Shown here: positions 30,917 to 37,980 of the stretch, piece after piece
Layout: the number at the start of each line of letters is the position of its first letter
Position numbering within the stretch: position 1 is the first letter of the stretch
Assembly (NCBI RefSeq): GCF_009914755.1
Contig: NC_060925.1
Length of the DNA stretch: 64,000 nt
Reading direction: 5' to 3' (one strand)
Source of the DNA: the human T2T-CHM13v2.0 reference genome, Homo sapiens
Notes under the pieces: generated by a model
Seen by the model: only the letters and a program-made list of their open reading frames with translations
Database searches by the model: none
Told to the model about the DNA's origin: nothing
Made by a program: the position numbers and the translations under genes

Positions 30917-31246
<330 letters not shown>

Positions 31247-31499
31247 TATTTCTTCTTTAAAATTTTGTTTTATTTTTATTGTACTTTAAGTTCTGGGATA
31301 TATGTGCTTAATGTGCAGGTTTGTTACATAGGTATACATGTGCCATGGTGGTTTGCTGCACCTATCAACCTGTCATCTATGTTTTAAGCCCCACATGCGT
31401 TAGATATTTGTCCTAATGCTCTCCTTCCCCTTTCCCCTCATCCCCCAACAGGCCCCGGTGTGTGATGATCCCCTCCCTATGTCCATGTGTTTGCATTGT

Positions 31500-34400
31500 T
31501 CAACTCCCACTTATGAGTGAGAACATGCAGTGTTTGGTTTTCTGTTCCTGTGTTAGTTTGCTGAGGGTGATGGTTTCCAACTTCATCCGTGTCCCTCCAA
31601 AGGACATGAACTCGTTCTTTTTCATGGCTGCTTAGTATTCCATGGTGTATATGTGCCACGTTTTCTTTATCCAGTCTATCATTGATGGGCATTTGGGTTG
31701 GTTCCAAGTTTTTGCTATTGTAAATAGTGCTGCAATAAACATATATGTGCATATGTCTTTATAGTAGAATGATTTATAATCCTTTGGGTATATACCCAGT
31801 AATGGGATTGCTGGTTCAAATGGTATTTCTGGTTCTAGATCCTTGAGGAATCGCCACACTGTCGTCCACAATGGCTGAACTAATTTACACTGCCACCAAC
31901 AGTGTAAAAGCGTTCCTATTTCTCCGCATCCTCGCCAGCATCTGTTGTTTCCAGACTTTTTAATGATCACCATTCTAACTGGCATGAGATGGTATTTCAT
32001 TGTGGTTGTAATTTGCATTTCTCTAATGACCAGTGATGATGAGCTTTTTTTCATATGTTTGTCAGCTCCATAAATGTCTTCTTTTGAGAAGTGTCTGTTC
32101 ATATCCTTCACCCACTTTTTGATGGGGTTGTTTTTTTCTTGTAAATTTGTTTAAGTTCCTTGTAGATTCTGGGTATCAGTTCTTTGTCAGATGGGTAGAT
32201 TACAAAAATTTTCTCCCGTTCTGTAGGTTGCCTATTCACTCTGATGATAGTTTCTTTTGCTGAGCAGAAGCTCTTTAGTTTAATTAGATCCCATTTGTCA
32301 GTTTTGGCTTTTGTTGCAGTTGCTTTTGGTGTTTTAGTCATGAAGTCTTTGCCTATGTCCTGAATGATATTGCCTAGGTTTTCTTCTAGGGTTTTTACGG
32401 TTTTAGGTTTTACATTTAATTATTTAATCCATCTTGAGTTAATTTTTGTGTGAGGTGCAAGGAAGGGGTCCAGTTTCTGTTTTCTGCATACGGCTAGCCA
32501 GTTTTCCCAGCACCATTTGTAAAATACGGAATCCTTTCCCCATTGCTTTTTTTGGTCAGGTTTGTCAAAGATCAGATGGTTGTAGATGTGTGGTGTTATT
32601 TCTGACACCTCTGTTCTGTTGCATTGGACTATATATCTGTTTTGGTACCACTACCATGGTGTTTGGTTACTGTAGCCTTGTAGTATAGTTTGAAGTCGGG
32701 TAGCATGATGCCTCCAGCTTTGTTCTTTTTGCTTAGGATTGTCTTGGCTATACAGGCTCTTGTTTGGTTCCATATGAAATTTAAAGTCATTTTTTCTAGT
32801 TCTGTGAAGAAAGTCAGTGGTAACTTGATAGGAATAGCATTGAATTTATAAATTACTTTGGGCAGTATGGTCATTTTCACGATATTGATTCTTCCTATCC
32901 ATGAGCATGGAATTTTTTTCCATTTGTTTTTGTCCTCCCTTATTTCCTTGAGCAGTGGTTTGTAGTTCTCCTCGAAGAGGTCCTTCACATCCCTTGTAAG
33001 TTGTATTCCTAGGTATTTTACTTTCTTTGTAGCAATTGTGAATGGGAGTTCATTCAGGATTTGACTCTCTGCTTGTCTATTATTGGTGTGTAGGAATACT
33101 TGTGATTTTTGCACATTGATTTTGTATCCTGAGAATTTGGTGAAGTTGTTTATCAGCTTAAGGAGTTTTGGGGCTGAGACGATGGGATTTTCTAAATATA
33201 CAATCATGTCGTCTGCAAACAGAGACAATTTGACTTCCTCTCTTCCTATTTGAATACCCTTTATTTCTTTCTCTTGCCTGATGCTCTGGCCAGAACTTCC
33301 AACACTATGTTGAATCGGCGTGGTGAGAGAGGGCATCCTTGTCTTGTGCTTGTTTTCAAAGGGAATGCTTCCAGTTTTTGCCCATTCAGTATGATATTGG
33401 CTGTGGGTTTGTCATAAATAGCTCTTATTATTTTGAGATATGTTCCATCAATACCTAGTTTATTGAGAGTTTTTAGCATGAAGGGGTTTTGAATTTTATC
33501 AAAAGCTTTTTCTGCATCTATTGAGATAATCATATGGTTTTTGTCATTGGCTCTGTTTATGTGATGAATTACGTTTATTGATTTGCATATGTTGAACCAG
33601 CCTCTCATCACAGGGATGAAGCTGCCTTGATTGTGGTGGATAAGCTTTTCGATGTGCTGCTGAATCAGTTTGCCAGTATTTTATTGAGGATTATCACATC
33701 GATGTTCATCAGGGATATTGGCCTGAAATTTTCTTTTTTTGTTGTGTCTTGGCCAGGTTTTGGAATCAGGATGATGCTGGCCTCATAAAATGAGTTATGG
33801 AGAAGTCCCTCTTTTTCTGTTGTTTGGAACAGTTTCAGAAAGAATTGTACCAGCTCCTCTTTGTACCTCTGGTAGAATTCGGCTGTGGATCCATCTGGTC
33901 CTGGGCTTTTTTTTGTTGGTAAGCTATTAATTACTGCCTCAGTTTCAGAACTTGTTATTGGTCTATTCAGGGATTTGACTTCTTCCTGGTTTAGTCTTGG
34001 CAGGGTGTGTGTGTCTAGGAATTTATCCATTTCTTCTAGAATTTCCGTTTTTTTTGCATACAGGTGTTTATAGTATTCTCTGATGGTAGTTTGATGGTAG
34101 TTTATATTTCTGTGGGATCAGTGATGATATCCCCTTTATGATTTTTTATTTTGTCTATTTGATTCTTCTCTCTTATTAGTCTATCTAGTAGTCTATCTAT
34201 TTTGTTAATCTTTTCAGAAAACCAGCTCCTGGATTCATTTATTTTTTGAAGAGTTTTTCGTGTCTCTATCTCCTTCAGTTCTGCACTGATCTTAGTTATT
34301 TATTGCCTTCTGCTGGCTTTTGAATTTGTTTTCTCTTGCTTCTCTAGTTCTTTTAAGTGTGATGTTAGGGTGTTGATTTTAGATCTTTCCCACTTTCTGA

Positions 34401-35292
34401 TATGGGCATTTAGTACTATAAATTTCCCTCTTAACACTGCCTTAGCTGTATCCCAGAGATTCTGGTATGTTGTGTCTTTATTCTCATTGGTTTCAAAGAA
34501 CTTCGTTATCTCTACCTTAATTTCGTTATTTACGCAGTAGTCATGCAGGAGCAGGTTGTTCAGTTTCCATGTAGTTGTGTGGTTTTGAGTGAGTTTCTTA
34601 ATCCTGAGTTCTAATTTGATTGCATTGTGGTCTGAGAGGCTGTTTGTTATGATTTCCATTCTTTTGCATTTACTGAGGAGTGTTTTACTTCCAATTATGT
34701 GGTCAATTTTAGAATAAGTGCTGTGTAGTGCTGAGAAGAATGTATATTCTGTTGAGTTGGGGTGGAGAGTTCTGTAGATGTCTATTAGGTCCACTTGGTC
34801 CAGAGCTGAGTTCAAATCCTGAATATCCTTGTTAATTTTCTGTCTCGTTGATCTGCTTAATATTGACAGTGGGGTGTTAAAATCTCCAACTATTATTGTG
34901 TGGGAGTCTAAGTCTCTTCGTAGATCTCTGATAACTTGCTTTATGAATCTGGTTGCTCCTGTATTGACTGCTTATATATTTAGGATAGTTAGCTCTTCTT
35001 GGTGCATTCATCCCTTTACCATTATGTAATGCCCTTCTGTGTCTTTTTTGATCTTTGTTGGTTTAAAGTCTGTTTTATCAGGGACTAGGATTGCAACCCT
35101 GCTTTTTTTGCTTTCCATTCCCTTTATTTTGAGCCCATGTGTGTCTTTGCATGTGAGATAGGTCTCCTGAATACAGCATATCGATGGGTCTTGACCCTTT
35201 ATCTAGTTTACCGGTTTGTGCCTTTTAACTGAGACATTTAGCCCATTACATTTAAGGTTAATATCGTTAGTATGTGAATTTGATCCTGTCAT
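31500..35292 (-). pseudogene. L1 ORF2 (endonuclease/reverse transcriptase), disrupted
   Basis: Fragments contain EN motifs ([19 protein letters not shown]), RT motifs ([16 protein letters not shown]) and the C-terminal [18 protein letters not shown]; several stops and frameshifts. Confidence 0.92.
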
Positions 35293-35359
35293 CATGATGC
35301 TAGCTGATTATTTTGCACATTAGTTGATGCAGTTTCTTTATAGTGCTGTTCTTTATATT

Positions 35360-36371
35360 TTGTTATGTTTTTGCAGTAATTGGTACCAGTTTTTCCTTTC
35401 CATATTTAGTGCTTCCTTCAGGAGCTCTTGTAAGGCCTTGTGGTGACAAAATTTCTCAGCATTTGCTTGTCTGTAAAGGATTTTATTTCTCCTTCATTTA
35501 TGAAGCTTAGTTTAGCTGGATATGAAATTCTGGGTTGAAAATTCTTTTCTTTAAGAATGTTGACTATTGGCCCCCACTCTCTTCTGGCTTGTAGGGTTTC
35601 TGCCAAGAAATCTGCTGTTAGTCTGATGGGCTTCCCTTTGTAGGTAACCTGACCTTTCTCTCTGGCTGCCCTTAACATTTTTTCCTTCATTTCAACTTTG
35701 GAGAATCTGATGATTATGTGTCTTCGGGTTGCTCTCCTCAAGGAGTATCTTTGTGGTGTTCTTTGTATTTCCTGAATTTGAATGTTAGCCTGTCTTCCTA
35801 GGTTGGGGAAGTTCTCCTGGATAATACCCTAAAGTGTGTTTTCCAACTTGGTTCCATTCTCTCTGTCACTTTCAGGGACCCCAATCAAGCATAGGTTTGG
35901 TCTTTTCACATAGTCCCATATTTCTTGGAGGCTTTGTTCGTTCCTTTTCATTCTTTTTTCTCTAATCTTGTCTTCACGTGTTATTTCATTAAGTTGTTCT
36001 TCAATCTCTGATATCCTTTCTTCTGCTTGATCGATTCAGCTATAGATACTTGTGTATGCTTCACGAAATTCTCGTGCTGTGTTTTTCATCTCCATCAGGT
36101 CATTTATGTTCTTCTCTAAACTGGTTATTCTAGTTAGCAGTTCCTGTAACCTTTTGTCAAGGTTCTTAGCTGCCTTGCATTGGATTAGAACATGCTCCTT
36201 TAGCTCAGAGGAGTTTGTTATTACCCACCTTCTGAAGCCTACTCCTGTCAGCTCGTCAAACTCATTCTCTGTCCAGTTTGGTGCCCTTGCTGGACAGGAG
36301 TTGTGATCATTTGGAGAAGAGGCATTCTGGTTCTTGGAATTTTCAGCATTTTTGCTCTGGTTTTTCCTCAT
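35360..36371 (-). pseudogene. L1 ORF1p, disrupted
   Basis: MRKNQSKNAENSKNQNASSP..ENEFDELT and RHIIIRFSKVEMKEKMLRAAREKG..FQPRISYPAKLSF lie in separate broken frames. Confidence 0.9.
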
Positions 36372-37769
36372 TTTCGTGGATTTATCTACCTTTGATCTTT
36401 GAGTCCAATGACCTTTGGATGGGTTTTCTGTATGGGTCGTTTTTGTTGATTTTGATATTGCTTCCTGTTTGTTAGTGTTTGATTTTGATATTGCTTCCTG
36501 TTTGTTAGTGTTTCTTCTAACAGGCCTCTCTTCTGCAGATCTGCTCCAGTTTGCTGGAGGTCCACTCCAGACCGTTTGCCTGGTTATCACCAGCGGAAGC
36601 TGCAGAACAGCAAAATTGCTACCTGTTCCTTCCTCTGGAAGCTTCGTCCCAGAGGGGCACCAGCCTGATGCCGGGGCTCTTCTGTATGAAGGGTCTGTCA
36701 ACCCCTGTTGTGAGGTCTCTCCCACTCAGGAGGCTTGGCGGTCAGGGACCCACTTGAAGAGGCAGTCTGTCCCTTAGCAGAGCTTGAGTATTGTGCTGGA
36801 AGGGCCCTCTTTGTCAGGATCCCCTTGCTCTCTTCAGAGCTAGTAAGCTGGAACGTTTATGTCTGCTGAAGCTGCGCCCACAGCCGCCCCTTCCCCCAGG
36901 GTGCTCTGTCCCAGGGAGATGGGAGTTTTATCAATAAGCCTCTTACTGGGGCTGCTGCCTTTCTTTCAGAGATGACCTGCCCAGTGAAGAGGAATCTAGA
37001 GAGACAGTCAGGCCACAGCCACATTGCTGTGCTGTGTTGAGTTCTGCCCAGTCCAAACTCCCAGGCCTCCTTAGCACTGTCAGGGGAAAACCGCCTACTC
37101 AAGCCTCAGCAATGGCGGACGCCCCAACCCCACCAAGCTTGATCATCCCAGGTCGACTTCAGACTGCTGTCCTGGCAGCAAGAATTTCAAGCCAGTGGTT
37201 CTTAGCTTGCTGAGCTGTTTGGGAGTGGGACTCGCTGATCGAGACCACTTGGCTCCCTGGCTTTAGCTGCCTTTCCAGGAGAGTAAACAGTGCTGTCTTG
37301 CTGGGGTTCCAGGCGCCACTCAGTTGGAAATGCAGAAATCACCCGCCTTCTGCGTTGGTCTCGCTGGGAGCTGCATACCAGAGCTGTTCCTATTAGGTCA
37401 TCTTGCCAGATCCAGAAAACCTTATTTCTTTATAAAAGTTTACAACTATGGGGACTGCAGTGAACACTTATAAGCAAACACCTTACTATATATATATGTG
37501 TGTCCTTACACTGTGTTTGCTTAGTCACGTTATTTTGAAATTTAAAGACCATAAAGTCTTCGAATCAAATGTACTTATTTTACAGATGAGTAAAATAAAG
37601 TCACAGGGGTACTGTGAGGCTTACATGAGGATGTAAAGCTCTTAGTACAGTCAAGGGCTAGCTAGCATTTAGTAAGTGTCATGTTTGCTGCTACTGTTAA
37701 TAACTTTTGTTACTATTTTGTAAAATTCTAAGATCAGAGAAAGCAAGAGTGAAGTGAGGTCTGATAGTT

Positions 37770-37980
37770 TTTGTAGGAAACTAAGAATCAGGAGTTTAGG
37801 GTTCCATTTCTGTTTTGTTCCTGACTCACTTGGACTCTTTGGGAAACTGGTTAACCTTTTCGTGTCTAAATCTAGCCATCTAAAGCTAGGAGAATCTTGC
37901 CATCTGCCTACGTCATGGGAGATCGTAAAGAAAATGATGGAAAATGCTTTACATCTGTGGGAGAAAGGTACTATGTAAGC
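37770..37980 (+). mobile_element. MIR
   Basis: aatcaggagtttagggttcc...ttaaccttttcgtgtct...catctaaa; degenerate. Confidence 0.5.

What the first reader, a model, noticed from the sequence alone, without database searches (positions are those of the whole stretch)
37280..37413. L1PA 5'UTR deletion that looks like a spliced-out intron (SpIRE in an older L1 subfamily)
Seen: the minus strand reads GGTGATTTCTGCATTTCCAACTGAG|TGGCGCCTGGAACCCCAGC, with the junction at 37319/37318, about 95 nt from the L1 5' end. Established: primate L1 5'UTRs have a splice donor at about +97 (CTGAG|GTAC), and spliced L1 RNAs can retrotranspose (SpIREs, described mainly for young L1PA families). From my recollection of the L1PA7/8 consensus, TGGCGCCTGG is preceded by a T-rich ...CCCCAG acceptor a few hundred nt downstream. 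Inference: this copy was reverse-transcribed from an intra-5'UTR spliced RNA and arrived lacking part of its internal promoter, using an acceptor specific to the older family.
Basis: partly seen in the sequence, partly recalled or inferred. Interest (0 to 1): 0.7.

Follow-up and report, generated by a model that had tools for sequence, protein, structure and literature searches.

The report
Spliced fossil of an old LINE-1
This old LINE-1 jumping gene, like 14 other copies in the human genome, lacks exactly the same intron-shaped piece of its built-in promoter, most likely because its RNA was spliced before being pasted into DNA; this extends a process described for younger LINE-1s to older families and a splice site not found in the papers searched.

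Summary
Confirmed. The element is a near-full-length minus-strand L1 (31262-37413), labelled L1PA8 in a published RepeatMasker table. At 37319/37318 it lacks a ~312-nt block. In intact relatives the block starts GT (26 of 26) and ends in a T-tract plus AG (25 of 26).

The junction occurs in 15 copies with unrelated flanks, against 1,790 intact acceptor matches. The 15 are not one clade (AU p 9e-98), so the loss happened repeatedly. The donor matches the G98U99 donor of known SpIREs. The acceptor (~+406) is none of the four in Larson 2018, lies in sequence that does not align to L1PA2, and the published catalogue has no L1PA7/8 entry.

Verdict: a SpIRE of an apparently uncatalogued class, most likely made by repeated splicing followed by ordinary retrotransposition. 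About 3% of L1PA8-type but about 0.3% of L1PA7-type copies carry it. The same donor also joins another apparently uncatalogued acceptor (~+315, 24 hits).

Weak points: this copy's target-site duplication is degenerate, and primate orthologs and promoter activity were not tested. Known mechanism, new variant.

The parts
31262..37413 (-). Near-full-length L1PA8 (about 6.15 kb), antisense within RASAL2 (intronic for the selected transcript)
   Evidence: RepeatMasker row hg19 chr1:178213693-178219834, minus strand, L1PA8, 11% divergence. Identity fixed by the spacing to the next L1PA2: 70,117 bp here vs 70,119 bp in the table
37319..37413 (-). 5'UTR segment 1 (95 nt), ending at the splice-donor exon end (GAG)
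   Evidence: Aligns with L1PA2 nt 11-97, whose nt 98-99 are GT
37318..37319 (-). Junction: a ~312-nt GT...AG block is absent
   Evidence: Block is 305-361 nt in 26 intact relatives; only 2 nt (AG) of microhomology
36372..37318 (-). Retained 3' part of the 5'UTR; includes unused homologues of the 97/622 acceptor (AG at 36841-36840) and the 97/853-type acceptor (AG at 36601-36600)
   Evidence: 479 and 719 nt downstream of the junction
35350..36371 (-). ORF1, broken by stops and a frameshift (3' end approximate)
   Evidence: translation
31500..35292 (-). ORF2, broken (stops within the first 200 codons; 3' end approximate)
   Evidence: translation of the first 600 nt
31262..31290 (-). Degenerate A-rich tail
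37414..37430 (-). Candidate 5' target-site duplication; its 3' partner is degenerate and appears split by an Alu
   Evidence: score not above chance (9 of 24 cross-pairs as high)
30951..31246 (-). Alu directly after the L1 tail
   Evidence: sequence; Alu identity by recalled motif and by hits to other flanking Alus
36956..37967 (+). RefSeq exon of an alternative RASAL2 transcript; starts inside the L1 5'UTR (no AG before it), crosses the junction antisense to the L1, and ends at a GT donor
   Evidence: Hub annotation

Best explanation
This L1PA8 copy lacks a ~312-nt GT-AG-bounded block of its 5'UTR, most likely because the spliceosome removed it from an L1 RNA that was then likely reverse-transcribed into the genome as a SpIRE. 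Shown: the exact block, its GT/AG ends, the same junction in 15 separate insertions, and their scattered ancestry. Inferred steps: (1) an intact L1PA8 was transcribed; (2) the donor at about +95-97 was joined to a T-rich acceptor at about +406; (3) ORF1 and ORF2 are untouched by the splice, so the RNA could make its own proteins and insert by target-primed reverse transcription; (4) the new copy would have a weakened internal promoter and probably left few or no progeny. The event recurred in L1PA8-type and, about tenfold more rarely, in L1PA7-type elements.
For: GT start in 26 of 26 and AG end in 25 of 26 intact relatives. The donor aligns with L1PA2 nt 98-99, the position of the tested G98U99 donor of Larson 2018. 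Fifteen junction copies, all 5'-complete and mostly near full length; flank matches between them are only 53-314-nt, 69-85% hits that look like Alu. One clade is rejected for all 15 (p-AU 8.8e-98) and weakly for the 11 older-type copies (p-AU 0.035; 1 shared column vs 1.7 for shuffled labels and 23 for a true subgroup). Control: of 97 exact donor hits not followed by GT, 8 are mutated intact donors. Of the other 89, 83 join one of five recurrent positions, each preceded by AG in intact copies. Target-site duplications stand out in 3 of 13 testable copies.
Against: This copy's own target-site duplication is not above chance, and only 3 of 13 stand out. The tree is poorly resolved (22 of 39 branches open, bootstrap not converged), so small spliced sub-lineages (L003+L007, L011+L012) are not excluded. 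The 11-copy test used a group named after seeing the tree. No RNA evidence of this splice was seen, and neither promoter activity nor orthologs were tested.
Confidence: 0.94

Rival explanations
1. One or a few spliced L1s stayed active and founded a small spliced sub-lineage, so many of the 15 are descendants rather than fresh splice events.
For: 11 of 15 fall in the smaller L1PA8-type group. Two weakly supported pairs exist (81/57 and 91/83). A SpIRE reactivated by a host promoter is published (RAP1GDS1).
Against: AU tests reject one clade. There is no excess of shared derived columns and no shared unique flank of the kind a transduction would leave. The 3' ends are of three different types.
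Confidence: 0.08
2. The block was lost by reverse-transcriptase template jumping, or by a post-insertion deletion at a DNA hotspot, and not by splicing.
For: Internal deletions are common in these copies. Orthologs were not checked.
Against: Only 2 nt of microhomology. Breakpoints are base-exact at a GT donor and an AG acceptor in 15 copies. The same donor joins four other AG-preceded positions.
Confidence: 0.03
3. The short form is ancestral and the block was later inserted in the L1 lineage.
For: L1 5'UTRs were remodelled repeatedly (L1PA8 vs L1PA2 alignment breaks).
Against: The first ~140 nt of the block are also in L1PA2 (alignment 9-238). Short copies are scattered among long ones in two subgroups and are under 1% of acceptor matches.
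Confidence: 0.01

Closest known systems
SpIRE97/622, 97/790, 97/853, 97/976 (Larson et al. 2018, PMC5860796)
   Same: Same donor position (G98U99 equivalent); an intra-5'UTR GT-AG block missing from otherwise near-full-length L1s; both ORFs untouched; similar frequency (about 3% of L1PA8-type vs 3.4% of L1PA3 for 97/622).
   Different: Acceptor at about +406 of the L1PA8 UTR, in sequence that does not align to L1PA2. The 622 and 853 homologues stay unused 479 and 719 nt downstream. Shorter intron (~312 vs 524 nt). L1PA8/L1PA7-type, whereas S1 Table lists only PA1-PA6 and the text reports no 97/622 in L1PA7-L1PA17.
Spliced L1 insertions of Belancio et al. 2006 and 2008
   Same: Retrotransposed spliced L1 RNA from the same donor (as described in Larson 2018).
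   Different: Acceptors 788/789 and 974/975 of L1.3. The papers themselves were not held, so their full lists were not seen.
RAP1GDS1 intronic SpIRE (Law and Burns, 10.1101/2025.02.02.635956)
   Same: A SpIRE inside a gene intron.
   Different: That one is an L1PA2 97/622 copy in the gene's own orientation and became a source element. This one is antisense to RASAL2, has broken ORFs and shows no sign of progeny.
Processed pseudogene formation
   Same: A spliced RNA copied into DNA by L1 proteins (general knowledge).
   Different: Here the template is the L1's own RNA, presumably mobilised in cis.

Membership tests
SpIRE (intra-5'UTR) | Internal deletion bounded exactly by a GT donor and an AG acceptor of the intact element | tested here: met
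   GT in 26 of 26, AG in 25 of 26 (14 of 15 among copies not selected on the acceptor)
SpIRE (intra-5'UTR) | Uses the conserved G98U99 donor | tested here: met
   segment 1 aligns to L1PA2 nt 11-97, followed there by GT
SpIRE (intra-5'UTR) | Same junction in multiple independent insertions | tested here: met
   15 copies, unrelated flanks, not one clade
SpIRE (intra-5'UTR) | TPRT hallmarks: poly(A) tail, target-site duplication, endonuclease site | tested here: inconclusive
   A-rich tail present. Duplication degenerate here and clear in 3 of 13 copies
SpIRE (intra-5'UTR) | Spliced RNA detected from an intact 5'UTR | not testable with these tools
   Needs RT-PCR or long-read RNA
SpIRE (intra-5'UTR) | Reduced sense-promoter activity | not testable with these tools
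   Shown only for 97/622 in Larson 2018
SpIRE (intra-5'UTR) | Deletion present at insertion (shared by primate orthologs) | not testable with these tools
   No other primate genome is held
Published classes 97/622, 97/790, 97/853, 97/976 | Uses one of the four published acceptors | tested here: not met
   the 622 and 853 homologues are retained downstream; the whole 3' UTR segment and the ORF1 start are present
L1PA8 | RepeatMasker subfamily call | tested here: met
   (published table) tied to this locus. The 18-nt 3'UTR segment (recalled as diagnostic of L1PA8 and older) is present
L1 antisense-promoter chimeric transcript | Transcript initiates inside the L1 5'UTR | tested here: inconclusive
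   The RefSeq exon starts inside the UTR; one chimera with 2 reads is listed; but 4 of 4 tested L1PA8 chimeras did not start in the antisense promoter

The most novel reading that the evidence does not exclude
The genome holds a mostly unread fossil record of L1 self-splicing, in which one fixed donor changes partner as the 5'UTR evolves: ~+406 in L1PA8, an 853-type site in L1PA7/6, ~+315 and 622 in younger families. Between L1PA8 and L1PA7 the lineage cut use of the +406 acceptor about tenfold while keeping both splice sites, which would be an early case of L1 evolving to suppress its own splicing.
Probability: 0.35. Interest if true: 0.65.

Novelty: new variant of a known kind. Interest (0 to 1): 0.45.

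Why it matters
The published SpIRE catalogue stops at L1PA6 (~27 Myr) because its probes came from young L1s. This class extends the record to L1PA8/L1PA7 and shows that each 5'UTR version had its own acceptor. That gives a countable, in-genome read-out of ancient germline RNA splicing per subfamily, and a ready test of whether L1 evolved to avoid splicing. In practice, 15 loci that look like full-length L1s are likely promoter-damaged. The single locus has no demonstrated function.

Tried and rejected
Single spliced ancestor: rejected.

Segmental duplication or shared transduction: no unique flank shared among 15 5' flanks and 12 3' flanks.

Identity with a published acceptor: rejected. Listing in Larson's supplement: no hit for RASAL2, L1PA7, L1PA8 or L1P3 in 8 files; both parts of S1 Table were read.

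The 16th pattern hit (C20) was dropped as non-L1. L069 was dropped from donor counts (5'-truncated).

A clear target-site duplication for this copy was not obtained.

Cause of the subfamily difference: the splice sites look the same in both groups. The intron differs by a ~15-nt duplication-like insertion and a few substitutions; none could be tied to splicing.

Antisense-promoter origin of the RASAL2 exon: not established.

One search used a badly specified pattern (1 hit) and was replaced. Khan 2006 and Belancio 2006/2008 could not be read.

Full report
OBSERVATION. The window holds a minus-strand L1 from 37413 to about 31262 (6,152 nt). The junction is at 37319/37318, 95 nt from its 5' end. 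A DNA search of the own genome with window 37200-37413 scored 40 of 1,992 candidates and gave 30 loci: 15 colinear across the junction (this one and 14 others) and 15 with a 305-361-nt block there. Twelve more intact copies were taken in chromosome order from an exact acceptor pattern. Of these 27, L069 is 5'-truncated and was dropped from donor counts. In the other 26 the block starts GT in 26 (L022 and L068 after a 1-nt shift) and ends AG in 25, after a T-tract. Among the 15 not selected on the acceptor, 14 end AG. Microhomology at the breakpoint is 2 nt (AG).

HOW MANY. A 26-nt junction pattern (up to 3 mismatches) gave 16 hits, control 1; one hit has no L1 match, leaving 15. A query built on a copy from the other subgroup found 14 of these and no new one among 40 scored of 3,308 candidates. 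The matching intact-acceptor pattern gave 1,790 hits, control 0, so 15 of 1,805, or 0.8%. The intact-donor pattern gave 9,277 hits across many subfamilies.

INDEPENDENT EVENTS. All 15 start at the L1 5' end and most are near full length; two have interrupted or replaced 3' parts in the stretch held. Comparing 15 5' flanks and 12 3' flanks gave only 53-314-nt hits at 69-85% identity, which I read as Alu. Target-site duplications stood out in 3 of 13 testable copies (L002 and L003: 0 of 24 cross-pairs as high; L014: 1 of 24). The window's own did not (9 of 24); an Alu sits in its 3' partner. A tree of 1,170 nt downstream of the acceptor (15 spliced, 27 intact) needs 11 label changes, at least 3 forced by well-supported branches; it is poorly resolved and the bootstrap had not converged. 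Holding the 15 together is rejected (p-AU 8.8e-98). Holding the 11 older-type copies together is rejected only weakly (p-AU 0.035, group named after seeing the tree). They share 1 private column, against 1.7 for shuffled labels and 23 for a real subgroup. Small sister pairs are not excluded.

CONTROL FOR SPLICING. I listed every exact donor match not followed by GT (97 hits, all shown; the pattern omits exons whose first base is G or second is T, and about a quarter of hits through its last letter). By my hand count, 8 are mutated intact donors, 1 is a tandem duplication in L009, 5 are singletons, and 83 join five recurrent positions: 55 to the 853-type site (22 on acrocentric short arms, probably duplicated), 18 to a site near +315, 5 to the site studied here, 3 to the 622 site, and 2 to a site near +290 inside this intron. 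Each is preceded by AG in intact copies (83 of the 100 listed, of 1,782 matches, for the +315 site). Random deletion would not behave this way.

SUBFAMILY. Pinson 2022 (PMC9396940; passages and supplement rows seen) lists a minus-strand L1PA8 in RASAL2, hg19 chr1:178213693-178219834, 11% diverged. Its distance to the next L1PA2 is 70,119 bp; the same distance here is 70,117 bp, so it is this element. Eleven junction copies have the window's 5'UTR type. Nine of them have an 18-nt 3'UTR segment with otherwise similar 3' ends, one (L006) has a different, older-looking 3' end, and one had no 3' end in the stretch held. Four have a second UTR type; three of them lack the segment and one had no 3' match. 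Calling that second type L1PA7 rests on a recalled diagnostic. With exact 23-nt patterns, spliced vs intact was 6 vs 98 for the first type and 1 vs 532 for the second (Fisher p 1e-4). With Pinson's counts of elements with a 5'UTR (379 L1PA8, 1,510 L1PA7, hg19), it is 11 of 379 (2.9%, CI 1.5-5.1) vs 4 of 1,510 (0.26%), p 1e-5. Only the window copy's label was checked against that table. The introns of the two types differ by a ~15-nt insertion and a few substitutions, not at the splice sites.

MECHANISM. Shown: the anatomy, recurrence and scattered ancestry. From Larson 2018 (PMC5860796; read parts 1-2 of 14, section 16, search passages, S1 Table in full; S1 Fig is an image and was not seen): this donor is functional, overlaps a RUNX3 site, is conserved in L1PA1-L1PA10, and intra-5'UTR spliced RNAs can retrotranspose once in cis. 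Inferred: an intact L1PA8 transcript was spliced from ~+95 to ~+406, kept both ORFs, and inserted by TPRT; the copy lost the RUNX3-overlapping donor and ~312 nt of promoter and was probably a dead end. Its ORFs are now broken.

COMPARISON AND NOVELTY. The intact L1PA8 UTR aligns to L1PA2 at 9-238 and again from 835; the acceptor at ~406 falls in the gap, and the 622 and 853 homologues remain unused downstream in this copy. Larson found no 97/622 in L1PA7-L1PA17, and S1 Table lists only PA1-PA6 (no hit for RASAL2, L1PA7, L1PA8 or L1P3 in 8 supplements). Full-text searches showed no listing that describes SpIREs in L1PA7/8. Of those papers I read passages only of Fernandes 2020 (PMC7110667) and Law and Burns; the rest were seen as listings. 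Khan 2006 and Belancio 2006/2008 are not held, and Dfam could not be consulted, so an earlier mention is possible.

RASAL2 EXON. A RefSeq exon (36956-37967, +) begins inside the retained UTR without an upstream AG and ends at a GT donor. Pinson lists one chimera here with 1 tumour read and 1 control read, but their four tested L1PA8 chimeras began upstream of the antisense promoter, and the host gene is transcribed on the same strand. A search for RASAL2 with antisense promoter and LINE-1 found 0 papers. Lanciano 2024 (PMC10879037): 2 of 6 RASAL2 supplement rows seen, neither this element. Unresolved.

VERDICT. Real, and explained by a known mechanism (0.94). The acceptor and the age class appear uncatalogued. 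New variant of a known kind; interest 0.45.

Noticed in passing
Genome-wide; example L075 (G000:C2:186801950-186802650): A second apparently uncatalogued SpIRE class: the same donor joined to a site near L1PA2 nt ~314 (intron about 215 nt). 24 hits with up to 3 mismatches, control 0; AG precedes the site in 83 of 100 listed matches. Not among Larson's four acceptors.
   Followed up: partly
Genome-wide; example L076 (G000:C1:221192570-221193170): The 97/853-type junction gives 55 exact-donor hits (33 outside acrocentric short arms) against 9 published. The one copy examined is closest to L1PA7-type intact elements.
   Followed up: partly
G000:C13, C14, C15, C21, C22 short arms: 22 hits of the 853-type junction on acrocentric short arms, probably one SpIRE multiplied by segmental duplication.
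   Followed up: no
L077 (G000:C6:19110320-19110820) and C6:16945027: Two copies join the donor to an AG-preceded site at about +290, inside the intron studied here.
   Followed up: partly
window 36956-37967 (+): Alternative RASAL2 exon starting inside the L1 5'UTR, antisense to the L1; could be antisense-promoter driven or a truncated model.
   Followed up: partly
L009 around the junction (G000:C12:7485375-7485424): 23-nt tandem duplication of the end of segment 1 directly at the splice junction.
   Followed up: no
L051 (copy L006, G000:C23:71807600-71816100): Junction copy with an L1PA8-type 5'UTR but a different, older-looking 3'UTR; possibly a recombinant lineage such as L1PA8A (label recalled).
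   Followed up: no
window 30951-31246 (-): Alu inserted directly after the L1 tail, apparently inside its target-site duplication.
   Followed up: partly
window ~36445-36515 (-): Tandem duplication of about 36 nt near the end of the 5'UTR, just upstream of ORF1.
   Followed up: no
L051:6760-8501 and L058:3550-5200 (element orientation): Younger L1s next to or nested in two of the junction copies.
   Followed up: partly
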